This document shows, piece by piece, positions 21,966 to 53,216 of a stretch of DNA of 64,000 bases. Both the position numbers and the translations under genes were made by a program. Below the pieces are notes generated by a model that was given only the letters and a program-made list of their open reading frames with translations, was not told the origin of the DNA and ran no database searches. Position 1 is the stretch's first letter; each line of letters starts with the position of its first letter. This DNA comes from an uncultured Pelagibacteraceae bacterium (lineage in GTDB: Bacteria > Pseudomonadota > Alphaproteobacteria > Pelagibacterales > Pelagibacteraceae), in the NCBI GenBank assembly GCA_902532225.1, contig CACAHI010000002.1, positions 569 through 64,568 of the forward strand, written 5' to 3'.

Positions 21966-22049
21966 ATGGGATATCCAAAAAAACATAGAGGCCGTAGAAA
22001 AATGGGCTCTAAAAAAAGAAGAGCAAGAAAAAAAAATAAGAAAAAATAA
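21966..22049 (+). CDS. 27-aa highly basic peptide (not in ORF track)
   Basis: MGYPKKHRGRRKMGSKKRRARKKNKKK; preceded by GAGGT Shine-Dalgarno sequence; ends 14 nt before the next gene. Confidence 0.7.
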   Translation: MGYPKKHRGRRKMGSKKRRARKKNKKK

Positions 22050-22063
22050 CCTTTTCAAAAAAA

Positions 22064-22768
22064 ATGGATAAAATAAAAACTGTTAAATCCATAAGTATAT
22101 GGATTTTCTTAGTTCCTTTTTTAGCGGTAAATACATGTTTAATATTGGTAACTCAATTTCACAGTTTGTTTCCAAACCCTGTTGATGTTATACACAACAC
22201 AATACCCTACATCGATGGTAAAGCTTCAATAAGTAGAACTGCTAGAGTATTTCCAACATATCTAATTTTTAAGCCAGCAATGTTTTTAACTTCATTTTTT
22301 TTAGTAAAATACTGGTTAGCAAATAGAGAAATAATAAGGTTTATAAATACAGAAGATCATAAATATTCAAAATACATAGTCTTTTTGGGAGTTTCTTCTG
22401 CAGTTTTTTTAACAATTCACTCTATTTTTTTAGGAATAAAATTTGATTATGCAGCTTATAAATTGTTTAGAAGAGTTGTTCTTTTGCTTTTTATTATTTT
22501 TGAACTTGTTGCCCAAACATATTTGGTTATAATTTTTTATTCATTTAGAGATAAGTTATTAAATTATATAAATCCTATATATCTCAGATTAAAATTATTT
22601 CTGGTATCATTGTTAATTATAGTTGCAATAATAAGTATTCCAATAGTTTCTCTTCCAGGAAATACATTTCTAAAACACGCACTAGAATGGGATTATTTTG
22701 TTGCTATAATAAGTTTTTACTTACTTACATATTTTATGTGGAGAAACCCTCATTCACACACCGGTTAA
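22064..22768 (+). CDS. Multi-pass membrane protein of unknown function
   Basis: About 6 hydrophobic segments; PYIDGKASISRTAR and LEW motifs. Confidence 0.75.
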   Translation: MDKIKTVKSISIWIFLVPFLAVNTCLILVTQFHSLFPNPVDVIHNTIPYIDGKASISRTARVFPTYLIFKPAMFLTSFFLVKYWLANREIIRFINTEDHKYSKYIVFLGVSSAVFLTIHSIFLGIKFDYAAYKLFRRVVLLLFIIFELVAQTYLVIIFYSFRDKLLNYINPIYLRLKLFLVSLLIIVAIISIPIVSLPGNTFLKHALEWDYFVAIISFYLLTYFMWRNPHSHTG

Positions 22769-22925
22769 GGTGTGTGATGAAAGATTTGGCTCGTCGTTGT
22801 ATGCGCTACCGCCAAGCCATGACCGCTCTACGATTTTAGCGCTACTCCGTAGAACTTTCTGCCCCCTGGGCTTGAACCTCTCGGTTTTTCCCCAATCGGC
22901 CAGTTAAGGGTTGCCCCTTAATTCA
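22750..22925 (-). ncRNA. Unidentified structured non-coding RNA
   Basis: 71 of 130 nt are G/C over 22791-22920 in an AT-rich background; nested stems; GCAA tetraloop hairpin and G-U pairs favour the minus strand; no substantial ORF noticed. Confidence 0.7.
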
Positions 22926-22998
22926 TTTTTAACAATATCAAAGTTAATAAGTTGTATGTATCACTTTTTGGTTGTTTTTTAATTATAATGAAATGTAT

Positions 22999-23016
22999 TG
23001 TGGATAATGTGGATAA
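22999..23016. promoter_or_regulatory. Two tandem perfect DnaA boxes
   Basis: TGTGGATAA-TGTGGATAA (reverse complement TTATCCACA twice), abutting the mnmA stop codon. Confidence 0.7.
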
Positions 23017-24135
23017 TTATTTTTTAATCCATCCACCACCTAAAAGCTTATCTCCAAATTTATCTTTTTTATAAAATACACATGCTTGACCTGGGGATAT
23101 GCCGTACTCATTTTCAAATAAAACAACTTCAGCTTGATTATTATCAATCAAATTAATTTTTGATTTTAAAAGCTTTCCTGTAGATCTTACTTTTGTATAA
23201 ACTTCCTCGCTAAATTCATCTTTATTTGCCAATAGATTAATTTTATTTATTTTAATTTTATTCTTTATCAATTTATTACGTGAACCAACTATTATTTCGT
23301 TTTTATCTGAATTAATATCTATCACATACAAAGGCTCTTTATCGGATACCTTGATTCCTTTTCTTTGTCCTATTGTAAAATTAATAATACCTTCATGAAC
23401 GCCAATAACCTTTCCTTCTAAATTTTTAATATTTCCCTTTTTATAAGAGTCAGGTCTAAATTTTTTAATTACTGAAGCATAATCTCCATTTGGAACAAAA
23501 CATATGTCTTGACTGTCAGGTTTCTCAGCAACATTTAAGTGTAATTCTTTTGCTATATTTCTTGTTTCACTCTTCAATTTAGTTCCTAAAGGAAATCTTA
23601 AATAATTTAATTGTTCTCTTGTAGTGTTAAATAAAAAATAACTCTGATCTCTATTTTCATCAATTGCTCTATACATATTTGTTGTATTTCCAGTAGTTAT
23701 ACTTTTTACGTAATGTCCTGTAATTAATGCATCTGCATCTAAATTTTTTGCCTCATCAAATAAATCTGTAAATTTTACACTCTGATTACACTGAACACAT
23801 GGTATAGGTGTTTCTCCGCTTAAATAACTATCTATAAAATTATCAATCACATTTTCTTTAAATTTATTTTGGTAATAAAGAATTTTATGATCTATATTAA
23901 GTTTGTGAGCTACCCTTTTAGCGTCAATTATATCTTGTCCTGCACAACATTGTTTTGATTTAGAAACTTGTTGGGTATCATCGTAAAGTTTTAATGTAAT
24001 TCCTATAACTTGATATCCTTCTTTTTTCATCATTCCTGCAACAGTTGATGAGTCGACACCTCCTGACATTGCTACAACAATTTTTGTCTCTTCGGGTTTT
24101 TTATCTAATCCTATTGAATTTAAATTATTTTCCAT
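23017..24135 (-). CDS. mnmA: tRNA 2-thiouridine(34) synthase
   Basis: [42 protein letters not shown] and PGQACV motifs; start trimmed to ATG at 24135. Confidence 0.97.
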
Positions 24136-24177
24136 TTTGATGGTATTTATACTTTTTTCTATTATAAATGAAAATAA

Positions 24178-24342
24178 ATGTTTGTGGAGTATGAACCGGG
24201 GGATAAAGTAATAAATCCATCTAAAAAAGATTGGGGAATTGGCCAAGTTCAATCTATCATAAAGTACAAAGTAACAGTAAATTTTGAAAATGTTGGTAAA
24301 AAAGTGATCGACATAAGAAACTTAGAATTAGAAAAGATATAA
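24178..24342 (+). CDS. DUF3553-like small protein (54 aa; not in ORF track)
   Basis: [54 protein letters not shown]; WGIGQVQS...VTVNFEN signature; stop overlaps the cysQ start. Confidence 0.85.
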
Positions 24343-25118: not shown

Positions 25119-25252
25119 GTGAACAATTAAGAATTATATTAATTATAATAGTTTCTGTATCTATATTTGGTTTATTAGTATTTGTTTTTGTAAAAAATTA
25201 TATAAAAAATAAAATTGACTATTATCAAAAAGAAAAAAATAAAAAAAATTAA
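25115..25252 (+). CDS. Putative 45-aa single-TM protein (not in ORF track)
   Basis: MSEQLRIILIIIVSVSIFGLLVFVFVKNYIKNKIDYYQKEKNKKN; ATGA overlap with the cysQ stop. Confidence 0.6.
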   Translation: MSEQLRIILIIIVSVSIFGLLVFVFVKNYIKNKIDYYQKEKNKKN

Positions 25253-25812
25253 AGTAAATTTATAATTTTTAGATATTCATCTTTATTTAAATCCATAACT
25301 TTTTTTGATGTTTCAAAATCAAATCCTGAACGTGCTAAAATTGCAATGTCTTTTTTATAAAAAAGATTTCTGTTATCCTCTGCTCTAGAAGGTCCAATTT
25401 TTTTTTTTTTACAAATTTTTATCGCTGAAAAAAAATCTTGATCTTCATTATTATCTTTTATTTGATTAATAGTCTCCAGGATATATTTATTATCAATTCC
25501 CTTTGATAATAAATAGTTTCTAATTTTATTTATTGAACTTCCTCTATTAAGTAAACTTTTTGCTTTTGAATTTGAATAAAAGCTATCATTTACAAATTTA
25601 CTTTTTTCTAAATCCTGTAAAACTACATCAATAAGATCAGTAACATTTTTTTTATTTATATTGTGTAATTTAGACTGTAAATATTTTTTTAGTAAATAAG
25701 TTTTTAACTGTTGTTTAGAAGGCGCATATTTTTCAATATAAGTTAAAGAGAAATTACGCATCTCTTCAACAGTTACTTCCAAGGATTTTTTTTTATTTTT
25801 TGTATGAATCAT
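25249..25812 (-). CDS. recX: RecX-family regulator
   Basis: YIEKY..S, F(V)ND..Y, RGSS..KI..YL..KGI and LARSGF pattern; start trimmed to ATG at 25812. Confidence 0.75.
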   Translation of the reverse strand: MIHTKNKKKSLEVTVEEMRNFSLTYIEKYAPSKQQLKTYLLKKYLQSKLHNINKKNVTDLIDVVLQDLEKSKFVNDSFYSNSKAKSLLNRGSSINKIRNYLLSKGIDNKYILETINQIKDNNEDQDFFSAIKICKKKKIGPSRAEDNRNLFYKKDIAILARSGFDFETSKKVMDLNKDEYLKIINLL

Positions 25813-25839
25813 TAAATCTCTATTATAATATATCCACAA

Positions 25840-26313
25840 ATGATCGAACAAATTTCTAATTTTTTCTCAATTGAAATGATATATTTATGGTTAAATATAG
25901 GTGTTTTGCCATTTTGGATTTTATTAATTTTTTTTTCACACACTAGATTATCTTCTTTTCTAGTAACATCTATTTTCCCACATTTAATTTTAGGAGGTCT
26001 TTATATTTATTTAGTTTACTATTTTTATATATCTGGCTACGACTTTTTAAATAATTTCAAACTTTATTTGGGCATAAAACATCTAAATAATTTATTTTCA
26101 GATTATCCTTTCTTATTAATGTTTTGGGTACATTTCATTGCAATTAATCTTTTTTGTGGATGCTGGATAGTAAGAGATTCACAAAAATTAATGATTTCGA
26201 AATTCTTTATATTTTTGCCTCTAATTGTTACTTACTTTGTTGGGCCTCTGGGTCTATTAATCTATTGGATAATTAGAATATTTTTTGCAAAAAGAATAAG
26301 TCTTTATGATTAA
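25840..26313 (+). CDS. ABA4/DUF4281-family membrane protein
   Basis: VLPFW, WVHFIAINLFCG and GPLGLL motifs. Confidence 0.8.
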   Translation: MIEQISNFFSIEMIYLWLNIGVLPFWILLIFFSHTRLSSFLVTSIFPHLILGGLYIYLVYYFYISGYDFLNNFKLYLGIKHLNNLFSDYPFLLMFWVHFIAINLFCGCWIVRDSQKLMISKFFIFLPLIVTYFVGPLGLLIYWIIRIFFAKRISLYD

Positions 26314-29639: not shown

Positions 29640-29648
29640 TTATCCACA
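29640..29648. promoter_or_regulatory. DnaA box upstream of the HU gene
   Basis: Perfect TTATCCACA in the rseP-hup intergenic region; a single copy could be chance. Confidence 0.4.
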
Positions 29649-50930: not shown

Positions 50931-53216
50931 TTAAAAGACTTTATTTAGGTTTATACTAGCTTCTTTACTATCACCTAAATTAGTTAAATCATCGTTTAAA
51001 TCAAAACTTAAATCATAACCATTAATATTTTTCTTTATTTCAAATTTTGATATTAAATTCTCAGATCCATTTATTGAAAATGCATATTCTGTATCTTCGT
51101 GAGGTAAATATCCTAAAGCTATATATAAGTTGTCAGTATATCCAGTGCCAAAAGCATGGTTTCTCTCATAAATAATAAAGACACTGTAGTGTTCGGGAAA
51201 AATTATATCTATACCAATTTCACCGTTAAGATTATGTAACGCTCCAGTGTGCAATGTATCATTAAACTTAACACTACCATCCCCAACATAGGTATATTTA
51301 AAGTTTGATGAACGATCTAACTCAGCAACATACTCCAATTTACCATGGCGTTTTAAGGTATATTTTTCGTTTGATAAATCCTCAACCAATGCCATTGCTG
51401 CTCTTAAATTTTTCGTTCTTACATGTTGGTCTTCAACTTCAATAGCTCCTGTGCCTGCTTCTTTATATCCGTGTAATATTGTATGCCCAAAATCGAATTG
51501 TCCAGAAGGTATAAGAGTTAATTTATCCCTTTTATACTCGTCCTTAATTTTTAAAGTGCCATATATTTGATTGCCTGTCCTATCTGCAGTTAATCTTTTA
51601 CCGTCATCATTATTGAGTATATCAGATCTTATTTTTCCTATTCCAAAGATCTTGTCTAAATATTTTGTGTCATCATTAATAGGAGATGTACTATAATACG
51701 TAATATTATATGTATTAGAATTTAAATTGCTTCCAGTACTACCAACATCAACATCATCGTTACCAAATCTAAAAGCAAATCCTTCAAGGCCATAATCATC
51801 TGTAAATCTATCAAGACCAAAGGTTAAAGAATTTGTATGAACTTCTTTTGTCGATGCAATACTAGTATCACCCACTCTTCCAAGAGAAATACTTCCTTCG
51901 CTCCAATAAAAATAGTTTTTGTTTGAATCATTTTTATTTTTAGAGGTTGATATTTTTTTAAAAGATGAAATTGGTACTGCTTTTAAAGATGAAAGCATAC
52001 TGTTTGAAAAATTTAATTTTACATTTTGATTAGATAAATTTTGTTTATCTTTATTTCTTCTAATCCACTTCAATCTATTTAAAGCTGAGTTTGTTGAGAA
52101 ATTAATTGTTCTTTTTGCTAATTCTACTTGAGCTTCTGCCATTCCTATTCTATCACCTTCTGATATCGAAGGACATTTTCCTGAAATAATATTAAAAGGA
52201 CAAACTAAATCGAATTCAACGACCTCGTCTCCTCCGTTTACTGTTCTATCACTACCTATATACATTTTAAAACCATTTTGACTAAATCCAATACCTCTTT
52301 GTTGTGCTAGATTACCGTTTCCACCAAAATTTACTAATCTAACTTCACCATCAATAGTGAAAGAAGATGTTGAATACGCAACGTCAAGGGAAATTTGAAC
52401 AACATCTGAAGTAGAATTTATATGTTCAACACACCAAAGTTTTTTTCCATCTTTACTAAATCTAATTCCCATAGGATTATTGCACTCGTCTTCTAATTCC
52501 ATACCTGCATTAGTTACAAGCGACATTGTGCTTAAACTATAAGGAGTTGAAAGCTCATACTCTAATAATCTTGTATTTCTTACATCTGAGCCATTATTTC
52601 CTTGGCCGTGATAAATAATAAATATTTTAGTTCCGTCATCATTAATCTCCACGCCTTGTGGACGATTTTTTCCCGCAGCTCCAAGCATTACCCCAGCATT
52701 ACTTCCGTCTTGTAAATTTGGAGAATCAGTAGAACCAATATTGGTATTTTGCTCTACATATTCACATGTTGAGAGATCATAAGACTTAGTTACTTTATAA
52801 TGATATATTACATTTGTATTGACACTATTTTGACTGGATACAAAAAAAAATTTCATACCATCACTGCTAAATTCAAGGTCATAAACACCTTGTTCAGTAC
52901 TGTCCGCATGAAAGCCATTATTCAATGTACATCTTTGGTCATCGCCTGCATAAACTTTTGTTGAAACATCAAAAGGGACAGTTAAATTATAAGTGTTTAT
53001 ATGTGATTGCTCGCCATCATTTAAATTACTATCTCTGTAAATTATGAACATTTTATCTCCTGCAGGATTAAAATGAATACCTTGAATATGTCCTAGTGGA
53101 CTACCCGCATCCTCTGTTACAAATGCTTGTTGTACATAAGTAACCATAGCTCCAAATGAATTAGAGATTGGAAATAAAAATAATAAAACTAAGATAATTT
53201 TTTTTAAAAAGTTCAT
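50931..53216 (-). CDS. Autotransporter with repeat-containing passenger domain
   Basis: Signal peptide; five F-xx-D-G-x-K repeats; C-terminal amphipathic beta-strand region (WSEGSISLG..., terminal Phe). Confidence 0.75.
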   Translation of the reverse strand: MNFLKKIILVLLFLFPISNSFGAMVTYVQQAFVTEDAGSPLGHIQGIHFNPAGDKMFIIYRDSNLNDGEQSHINTYNLTVPFDVSTKVYAGDDQRCTLNNGFHADSTEQGVYDLEFSSDGMKFFFVSSQNSVNTNVIYHYKVTKSYDLSTCEYVEQNTNIGSTDSPNLQDGSNAGVMLGAAGKNRPQGVEINDDGTKIFIIYHGQGNNGSDVRNTRLLEYELSTPYSLSTMSLVTNAGMELEDECNNPMGIRFSKDGKKLWCVEHINSTSDVVQISLDVAYSTSSFTIDGEVRLVNFGGNGNLAQQRGIGFSQNGFKMYIGSDRTVNGGDEVVEFDLVCPFNIISGKCPSISEGDRIGMAEAQVELAKRTINFSTNSALNRLKWIRRNKDKQNLSNQNVKLNFSNSMLSSLKAVPISSFKKISTSKNKNDSNKNYFYWSEGSISLGRVGDTSIASTKEVHTNSLTFGLDRFTDDYGLEGFAFRFGNDDVDVGSTGSNLNSNTYNITYYSTSPINDDTKYLDKIFGIGKIRSDILNNDDGKRLTADRTGNQIYGTLKIKDEYKRDKLTLIPSGQFDFGHTILHGYKEAGTGAIEVEDQHVRTKNLRAAMALVEDLSNEKYTLKRHGKLEYVAELDRSSNFKYTYVGDGSVKFNDTLHTGALHNLNGEIGIDIIFPEHYSVFIIYERNHAFGTGYTDNLYIALGYLPHEDTEYAFSINGSENLISKFEIKKNINGYDLSFDLNDDLTNLGDSKEASINLNKVF

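What the first reader, a model, noticed from the sequence alone, without database searches (positions are those of the whole stretch)
22750..22925. Unidentified ~170-nt GC-rich structured RNA between mnmA and a membrane protein gene
Seen: 55% GC over 22791-22920 between two convergent genes. Nested pairings CAAGCC(22813-18)/GGCTTG(22869-74) and TCTACG(22827-32)/CGTAGA(22848-53) plus a weaker outer stem give a rod with internal bubbles. Flanking hairpins are TTAAGGG-GCAA-CCCTTAA (GNRA loop on the minus strand) and CACACACC/GGTGTGTG (22755-22776), the latter overlapping the stop of the opposite-strand gene. With no co-oriented gene directly downstream on either strand, it is unlikely to be a riboswitch. 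I see no tRNA, tmRNA, SRP or RNase P signature. Inference: a standalone RNA, either a divergent 6S RNA or a new class, retained despite strong genome streamlining.
Basis: partly seen in the sequence, partly recalled or inferred. Interest (0 to 1): 0.8.

Follow-up and report, generated by a model that had tools for sequence, protein, structure and literature searches.

The report
Known SAR11 small RNA IMES-2
This is a full copy of IMES-2, an already catalogued small RNA of the ocean bacterium SAR11 with no known function; two of its loops are predicted from matched mutations to lock together, and it likely works as a stand-alone protein-binding RNA whose promoter may be controlled by the replication initiator DnaA.

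Summary
The RNA is real but known: IMES-2 (Rfam RF02035), full length, 156.6 bits, minus strand 22928-22786. This scan met it before in other genomes. Three things go beyond the Rfam entry. (1) Loops L3 and L4 kiss: among loci chosen only for a variant L3, 107 of 107 anchored metagenome loci (of 120) and 22 of 22 genomes carry the exact complement in L4; the pairing is probably already in Weinberg's own alignment (inferred). (2) The RNA sits in a 250-260 bp cassette that is present or absent as a unit: tandem DnaA-box-like pair, conserved upstream element, extended -10, RNA, terminator hairpin. (3) It is dispensable: found in 46 of 136 near-complete Pelagibacterales genomes, at four unrelated sites. 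No 6S RNA was found in 151 genomes. Best mechanism, inferred: an abundant, compact, trans-acting RNA that binds a protein, with DnaA-gated transcription (about 0.45). No partner was found.

The parts
22786..22928 (-). IMES-2 RNA (Rfam RF02035), model positions 1-141; likely 5' end near 22924-22925
   Evidence: RNA-library contigs of runs X2 and X4 stop at 22924 and 22922 and X8 has no cover above 22927 (weak hint only)
22904..22921 (-). Stem P1 with GCAA (GNRA) tetraloop
   Evidence: 100% of cells paired, 4 of 7 pairs with double changes
22859..22903 (-). Stem P2 with 4x4 A-rich internal loop and GNRA tetraloop (GAGA)
   Evidence: 92.6% and 90.5% paired; 9 of 15 pairs with double changes
22825..22855 (-). 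Stem P3 (8 bp) with 15-nt loop L3; kissing strand GCGCUA at 22842-22837
22788..22818 (-). Stem P4 (9 positions, one G-A pair that swaps to A-G) with 13-nt loop L4; kissing strand UAGCGC at 22808-22803
22744..22787 (-). Long terminator-like hairpin outside the Rfam model; here its U-tract is short and it overlaps the end of the membrane gene
   Evidence: 205 of 262 homologues have a U-rich end; RNA contig cover falls off over 22783-22760
22932..22940 (-). Predicted extended -10 element (TG-n-TATTGT)
   Evidence: 107 of 142 TGnTA hits put the -10 hexamer exactly 21 nt after GTGATA; not found by the consensus scan; inferred
22958..22977 (-). Conserved upstream element CAAC-N3-AAAGTGATAC, probable activator or polymerase contact site; factor unknown
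   Evidence: 231 of 272 unique upstream regions against 1.9% of random windows; best site in the own assembly by far (29.1 bits, next 15.4)
22999..23016 (-). Two perfect head-to-tail DnaA-box 9-mers (TTATCCACA, consensus recalled), starting right after the mnmA stop
   Evidence: only such tandem pair in the 830-kb assembly at up to 1 mismatch each; tandem in 232 of 272 homologous upstream regions against 0.4% of random windows; 0 of 35 empty mnmA sites
23017..24252 (-). mnmA, upstream neighbour; not part of the element
22064..22768 (+). Convergent membrane protein gene of no known family; not part of the element
   Evidence: directly abuts mnmA where the cassette is absent

Best explanation
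This is the gene for IMES-2, a stand-alone four-stem RNA of SAR11 bacteria whose third and fourth loops are predicted by covariation to pair into a kissing helix, and which likely acts in trans as an abundant, compact RNA that binds and titrates a cellular protein, its transcription probably gated by DnaA. Shown: identity, structure by covariation, cassette boundaries, independence from neighbouring genes, presence in RNA libraries. Inferred: the promoter elements and start site; termination at the 3' hairpin; that DnaA binds the tandem boxes and ties RNA output to replication state; that P3 and P4 (fixed at 8 and 9 positions, short linker) pack side by side within one molecule while the GNRA loops and A-rich internal loop make tertiary or protein contacts; that the job is protein binding. 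Identity as IMES-2 about 0.99, kissing helix about 0.97, stand-alone trans RNA about 0.9, DnaA control about 0.55, protein decoy or scaffold about 0.5.
For: Rfam match over the whole model, single copy in the assembly. Covariation in all stems. Kissing helix: 96.2% of cells paired, 4 of 6 pairs with double changes, 0 of 500 shuffles as high, slid controls at most 55.5%; the two variable pairs rank 7 and 11 of 9316 column pairs and change together in all 3 parsimony events each; out-of-sample, six other dinucleotides in L3 are each answered by the exact complement in L4. No exact match of 13 nt or more to the rest of the assembly on either strand. Four unrelated sites with different downstream genes, convergent at two of them. 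The cassette begins at the first DnaA-like box and ends at the terminator in a close pair of genomes with and without it (G074, G064) and at the mnmA site. Box pair sits 39-41 or 48-50 nt from the upstream element in 199 of 206 regions. RNA-library contigs pile up on 22781-22928 and hardly on the flanks in X4, X7, X8, X9 and X12. The degenerate copy in G124 has lost both the L4 strand and the promoter module.
Against: No protein partner is identified: comparing G000 and G074 (with the RNA) against 800 of 1200 kb of G064 (without) gave 16 candidates, 13 short and probably spurious, one scoring partly in G064, and the two tested did not track the RNA. Covariation cannot tell a kiss within one molecule from a kiss between two. 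DnaA binding is inferred from a recalled consensus; most homologues have degenerate boxes and another direct-repeat-binding regulator could use them; the random-window control is mostly coding DNA. The terminal kissing pair is broken in 21 of 124 sequences. Contig depth is not a measure of expression, diverged flanks of relatives would not map, and runs X1, X2 and X16 show little or no contrast with the flanks. Two thirds of near-complete genomes lack the RNA, so it is not essential.
Confidence: 0.45

Rival explanations
1. The kiss forms between molecules (L3 of one RNA with L4 of the next), so IMES-2 builds dimers or rings, as phage phi29 pRNA does (recalled) or as the RNA-only multimers of large ornate RNAs do.
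For: The same covariation fits either geometry; in the commonest variant L3 is also self-complementary (L3-L3 duplex -10.9 against L3-L4 -8.0 kcal/mol); high apparent abundance.
Against: Selection is on L3-L4, not on the palindrome: L3-L3 pairing collapses in several natural variants (-0.2 to -3.5 kcal/mol; 89.8% of cells against 99.0% for L3-L4). Adjacent stems of matched length with a short linker suit pairing within one molecule (inference).
Confidence: 0.15
2. A functional stand-in for 6S RNA: an abundant RNA that sequesters RNA polymerase holoenzyme.
For: No RF00013 match in 151 of 151 Pelagibacterales genomes searched while control genomes ring; similar size; abundance (recalled from the original description).
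Against: No rod or central bubble; no 6S match even at E 10; 104 of the same 151 genomes have neither RNA.
Confidence: 0.07
3. An aptamer or ribozyme acting on its own: the knotted fold binds a small molecule or catalyses a reaction, with no protein partner.
For: Kissing loops, GNRA loops and many invariant unpaired bases are typical of such folds (general knowledge); no partner gene found.
Against: No match to any riboswitch or ribozyme family; no joints or cut sites seen in contigs (which can hardly show them); no conserved regulated gene.
Confidence: 0.1
4. A base-pairing small RNA that regulates mRNAs in trans.
For: Own promoter and terminator, patchy occurrence.
Against: The loop centres change freely between lineages and always with each other, so they are not seeds; no exact match of 13 nt or more elsewhere in the 69%-complete assembly. 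Short or imperfect seeds were not tested.
Confidence: 0.07
5. The DNA matters more than the RNA: the cassette is a DnaA-titrating or origin-like site, or a selfish passenger, and the RNA is a by-product.
For: Boxes travel with the cassette; the commonest site in genus g1 lies beside a tyrosine recombinase gene in a slot with variable content.
Against: Strong RNA-level covariation; in complete genome G098 it lies about half a chromosome from dnaA; absent from most genomes; single copy; the recombinase is also present in 19 of 20 other RNA-negative g1 genomes tested; 2 viral pattern matches were not IMES-2.
Confidence: 0.07
6. A riboswitch or attenuator leader for the alkyltransferase (ogt/MGMT) gene that follows it in many Pelagibacter genomes.
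For: At the recombinase site the RNA and its terminator lie about 55 nt before a co-oriented ogt-family gene; 119 of the 166 assigned or unassigned loci of the two unselected sets are at that site.
Against: In this window and in all deeper-branching genera sampled it lies behind mnmA facing a convergent gene; the ogt gene stays when the cassette is absent.
Confidence: 0.04

Closest known systems
IMES-2 RNA motif (Rfam RF02035); from memory described by Weinberg, Perreault, Meyer and Breaker 2009 (Nature) and seen as a psRNA group by Shi, Tyson and DeLong 2009; neither paper could be read here
   Same: Whole model matched, 156.6 bits; the same four stems; confined to SAR11.
   Different: Only a 2-nt longer P3-P4 linker. 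The Rfam structure line lacks the L3-L4 kiss, the 3' hairpin and the promoter module. Table S1 of PMC7657543 lists 39 pairs (15 covarying) for Rfam and 44 (17 covarying) for the ZWD alignment: five more pairs with two covarying is what the kiss would add, so it is probably known (inferred; the alignment itself was not seen).
6S RNA (Rfam RF00013)
   Same: Abundant stand-alone bacterial RNA of similar size.
   Different: Four stems and a kissing helix instead of one rod with a central bubble; no model match.
Purine riboswitch aptamer and phi29 pRNA (recalled, as architectural analogues)
   Same: Two neighbouring hairpins joined by loop-loop pairing.
   Different: No sequence or model similarity, no three-way junction closing the two hairpins, no regulated gene, no known motor protein.

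Membership tests
IMES-2 (RF02035) | Score above the gathering cut-off over the full model | tested here: met
   156.6 against 54.7 bits, positions 1-141
IMES-2 (RF02035) | Four stems supported by covariation | tested here: met
   93.5% of cells paired, 30 of 45 pairs with double changes, 0 of 500 shuffles
IMES-2 (RF02035) | Marine SAR11 host range | tested here: met
   46 of 123 genomes of the own family, 0 of 27 of the other family; 1 of 150 class-wide, that one in the own family; 78 of the 80 titles shown name Pelagibacteraceae or Pelagibacterales and the other two are not IMES-2 by profile
IMES-2 (RF02035) | Very abundant transcript | tested here: inconclusive
   contig depth far above the flanks in 5 of 8 RNA runs laid, but contigs cannot give level or strand
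6S RNA | Match to RF00013 | tested here: not met
6S RNA | One long rod with a central bubble | tested here: not met
   rod pair does not covary; four stems do
6S RNA | Binds RNA polymerase holoenzyme and templates product RNAs | not testable with these tools
   needs co-purification
Riboswitch or cis-leader | Consistently upstream of a co-oriented, functionally related gene | tested here: not met
   convergent gene at the mnmA and g5 sites; four unrelated sites
Riboswitch or cis-leader | Ligand-dependent refolding | not testable with these tools
   needs probing
Replication origin (oriC) | Present in every genome, usually near dnaA | tested here: not met
   absent from most genomes; 672 kb from dnaA in the 1379-kb genome G098; GC skew uninformative
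DnaA-regulated promoter | Conserved DnaA boxes at a fixed distance from the promoter | tested here: met
   dnaA present
DnaA-regulated promoter | DnaA binding changes transcription | not testable with these tools
   needs gel shift and in vitro transcription
Type III antitoxin RNA | Tandem pseudoknot repeats upstream of a toxin gene | tested here: not met
   single unit, no conserved co-oriented neighbour

The most novel reading that the evidence does not exclude
Probability: 0.12. Interest if true: 0.75.

Novelty: already known. Interest (0 to 1): 0.27.

Why it matters
The element itself is a catalogued family, so it is no discovery. Its function has stayed open since 2009 (recalled; ten library searches found no paper on it), although it is reported as one of the most abundant RNAs in seawater. 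What this work adds makes that question easier to test: exact cassette boundaries, a conserved promoter with a DnaA-box pair, seven natural loop codes that serve as ready-made compensatory mutants, and close genome pairs with and without the cassette.

Tried and rejected
New RNA class, 6S, riboswitch, origin, type III antitoxin: rejected as above. L3-L3 palindromic dimer and an inner GCG-GUAG-CGC hairpin in L4 fit worse than L3-L4 (89.8% and 95.9% against 99.0% of cells). A likeness of the loops to tRNA-Pro D-arm words, of P2 to the sarcin-ricin loop and to the c-di-GMP-I riboswitch (all recalled) was dropped: the words vary in homologues and Rfam gives no second hit. No tRNA or tmRNA in the window. 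Phage carriage: 2 viral pattern matches, neither IMES-2. A regulon for the upstream element: no second good site in the assembly. Tandem-box pattern search in five genomes gave no excess over its reversed control, so it says nothing on other DnaA targets. GC skew follows gene orientation here. Partner search: a DusA-like protein (label recalled) is present in 5 of 5 negative genomes; a 189-aa protein is in 100 of 151 genomes regardless of the RNA; a third of G064 was not compared, so a partner encoded there is not excluded. Rows left out: 6 pattern loci without a profile hit and L081 (no L4) from alignment A1 (124 of 125 unique); L126 (unrelated 3' half), 10 of 120 metagenome loci too short and 3 without the anchor (these three still pair at 5 of 6 positions). 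The MnmA tree is the quick one; the careful search did not finish. Literature: ten searches found no paper treating the IMES-2 RNA in its main text; the 2009 papers are not held.

Full report
Observation. The stretch 22791-22920 is 54.6% GC in a window of 30.2% and lies between convergent genes: mnmA on the minus strand and a 234-aa membrane protein of no known family on the plus strand. The minus strand folds much better than its shuffles (z -5.3). There is no tRNA or tmRNA in the window.

Identity. Rfam gives one hit in the whole window: IMES-2 (RF02035), minus strand 22928-22786, all 141 model positions, 156.6 bits against a cut-off of 54.7. Nothing else reaches E 10 on 22700-23030. The assembly (69% complete) holds one copy. 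From memory, IMES-2 was described in 2009 from marine metagenomes and metatranscriptomes as a very abundant RNA of unknown function; I could not read those papers. Earlier notes of this scan reached the same identification on other genomes.

Distribution. 47 of 151 genomes of the order have a match, 46 of 136 among near-complete ones; 46 of 123 in the own family, 0 of 27 in the other. Class-wide, 1 of 150 other genomes matches, and it belongs to the own family. Titles of pattern matches name Pelagibacteraceae. A quick MnmA tree of 88 rows, one gene only and with the careful search unfinished, puts the mnmA-site copies in all deeper genera sampled and in this genome, the recombinase-ogt site only inside the own genus, and RNA-negative genomes scattered among positive ones (8 changes, at least 4 forced by strong branches). 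The mnmA site is therefore likely ancestral for most of the family, with relocation and repeated loss or regain later (inference). 6S RNA was not found in any of 151 genomes, but 104 of them have neither RNA.

Structure. On 124 distinct homologues the four Rfam stems and one further helix hold in 93.5% of cells, with double changes in 30 of 45 pairs. The further helix joins loop L3 (GCGCUA, 22842-22837) to loop L4 (UAGCGC, 22808-22803): 96.2% of cells paired, 4 of 6 pairs with double changes, 0 of 500 shuffles as high. Its two variable pairs rank 7 and 11 among 9316 column pairs and change jointly in each of 3 parsimony events (123 rows, L126 left out). As an independent test I selected loci only by a changed L3 and then read L4: 107 of 107 anchored metagenome loci (120 fetched; 10 too short; 3 without the anchor, still pairing at 5 of 6 positions) and 22 of 22 genomes carry the exact complement at both variable positions, over six alternative dinucleotides. 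These loci are related and not independent events, but the six codes are distinct solutions. Against: the end pair of the helix is broken in 21 of 124 sequences. Self-pairing of L3 fails in several variants. Novelty of the kiss is doubtful: Table S1 of PMC7657543 (I read part 1 of that supplement and passages of the text) gives 15 covarying of 39 pairs for the Rfam structure and 17 of 44 for the ZWD structure. The 39 equals the pairs in the structure line, and five more pairs with two covarying is what this helix adds. The alignments of that paper were not among the files that hold the term, so this is inferred, and supplements I could not see bear on it.

Cassette. Behind the model lies a long hairpin, usually with a U-rich end (260 of 262 unique tails fold at -10 kcal/mol or better; 205 U-rich). 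Upstream, 272 of 272 unique regions have a DnaA-box-like 9-mer within two mismatches (9.5% of 5000 random windows of the own assembly, mostly coding), 232 a tandem pair (0.4%), and 231 the element AAGTGATA (1.9%) (these counts leave out the divergent copies of genus g5, which by eye show the same module, and G124, which lacks it). In this window both boxes are perfect and form the only such pair in the assembly. Spacing is tight: first box to element 39-41 or 48-50 nt in 199 of 206, element to extended -10 exactly 21 nt in 107 of 142 hits, too long for the element to be a plain -35. Where the RNA is absent from the mnmA site, mnmA abuts the membrane gene (-7 to +12 nt in the 8 genomes that have it there) and 0 of 35 sites show a tandem pair; single box-like matches in 16 of 35 come from codons of the membrane gene. 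In the close pair G074 and G064 the difference at the recombinase-ogt site runs from the first box to the terminator. So boxes, promoter, RNA and terminator are one unit of about 250-260 bp. It is not an origin: most genomes lack it and in G098 it lies 672 kb from dnaA on a 1379-kb chromosome.

Context and expression. Four sites were seen: behind mnmA, between a tyrosine recombinase and an ogt-family gene, a site in genus g5 with a convergent downstream gene, and a degenerate copy in G124. This excludes a dedicated cis role. Twenty RNA runs of 14 studies hold part of the stretch. Of 8 laid, X4, X7, X8, X9 and X12 show contig depth on the RNA far above the flanks; X1, X2 and X16 show little or no contrast. 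Contigs of three runs end between 22922 and 22927, near the predicted start. Contigs give no strand or level, and relatives' flanks would not map, so this shows presence and hints at the ends, no more.

Mechanism. Shown: a self-contained RNA gene under selection for shape. Inferred: sigma70-type transcription from an extended -10, helped or hindered by DnaA at the boxes and by an unknown factor at the upstream element; termination at the hairpin; folding into a compact body in which P3 and P4 are locked by the kiss and the GNRA loops and A-rich internal loop dock or face a protein. An abundant, compact, dispensable RNA without free seeds and without a linked gene most plausibly binds and titrates a protein (about 0.45 for the whole chain). 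A search for a dedicated partner by comparing G000 and G074 with two thirds of G064 found none that tracks the RNA, which fits a core protein as the partner but does not show it.

Literature seen. PMC7657543: passages and supplement part. PMC5069720: passages, no mention of IMES. PMC2704228: term search, no mention of IMES, 6S RNA or DnaA. PMC13414033: two passages on psRNAs. Others: search listings only. I found no statement in print on DnaA boxes at the IMES-2 promoter in these searches, but the original papers are outside the library. Tallies of the 151- and 401-genome searches include one genome marked unpublished (G118) as a single row.

Verdict. Real, already known, function open. Interest 0.27; the most novel reading not excluded has probability about 0.12 and would deserve 0.75.

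Noticed in passing
window 21966-22049 (+): A 27-aa Lys/Arg-rich ORF with a good ribosome-binding site, conserved near the mnmA end in most SAR11 loci; no NCBIfam hit. From memory it resembles the small basic ribosomal proteins of the bS22/AURKAIP1-COX24 type.
   Followed up: partly
window 22064-22768 (+): 234-aa membrane protein without Pfam or NCBIfam match, present next to mnmA in only some genomes; here its last codons run through the RNA's terminator hairpin on the other strand.
   Followed up: partly
151 Pelagibacterales genomes: No 6S RNA (RF00013) found in any, while controls ring; SAR11 may lack 6S RNA or carry one too divergent for the model.
   Followed up: partly
L081 2077-2204 (-), genome G124: Degenerate IMES-2 (69.7 bits) at its own site, without the L4 kissing strand and without the promoter module; perhaps a decaying or repurposed copy.
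   Followed up: partly
L086 1771-2721 (-) and L209-L233: A 317-aa tyrosine recombinase below all XerC/XerD cut-offs, in 25 of 28 genomes tested, beside a slot of variable gene content; roughly opposite dnaA in G098 and G064.
   Followed up: partly
alignment A1, loop L3 columns 80-94: The base of L3 reads AGUA on one side and GAA or AAA on the other, like a bulged-G (loop E) motif (recalled), with columns 83, 93 and 94 covarying; it would leave exactly the six kissing bases as the loop.
   Followed up: no
window 25249-25851 (-): RecX-like protein, below all curated cut-offs.
   Followed up: no
window 29640-29648 (+): A third perfect DnaA-box 9-mer in the window, single.
   Followed up: no
window 50931-53216 (-): 761-aa secreted-looking protein with repeats in the first half and a probable outer-membrane barrel at the end (by eye).
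   Followed up: no
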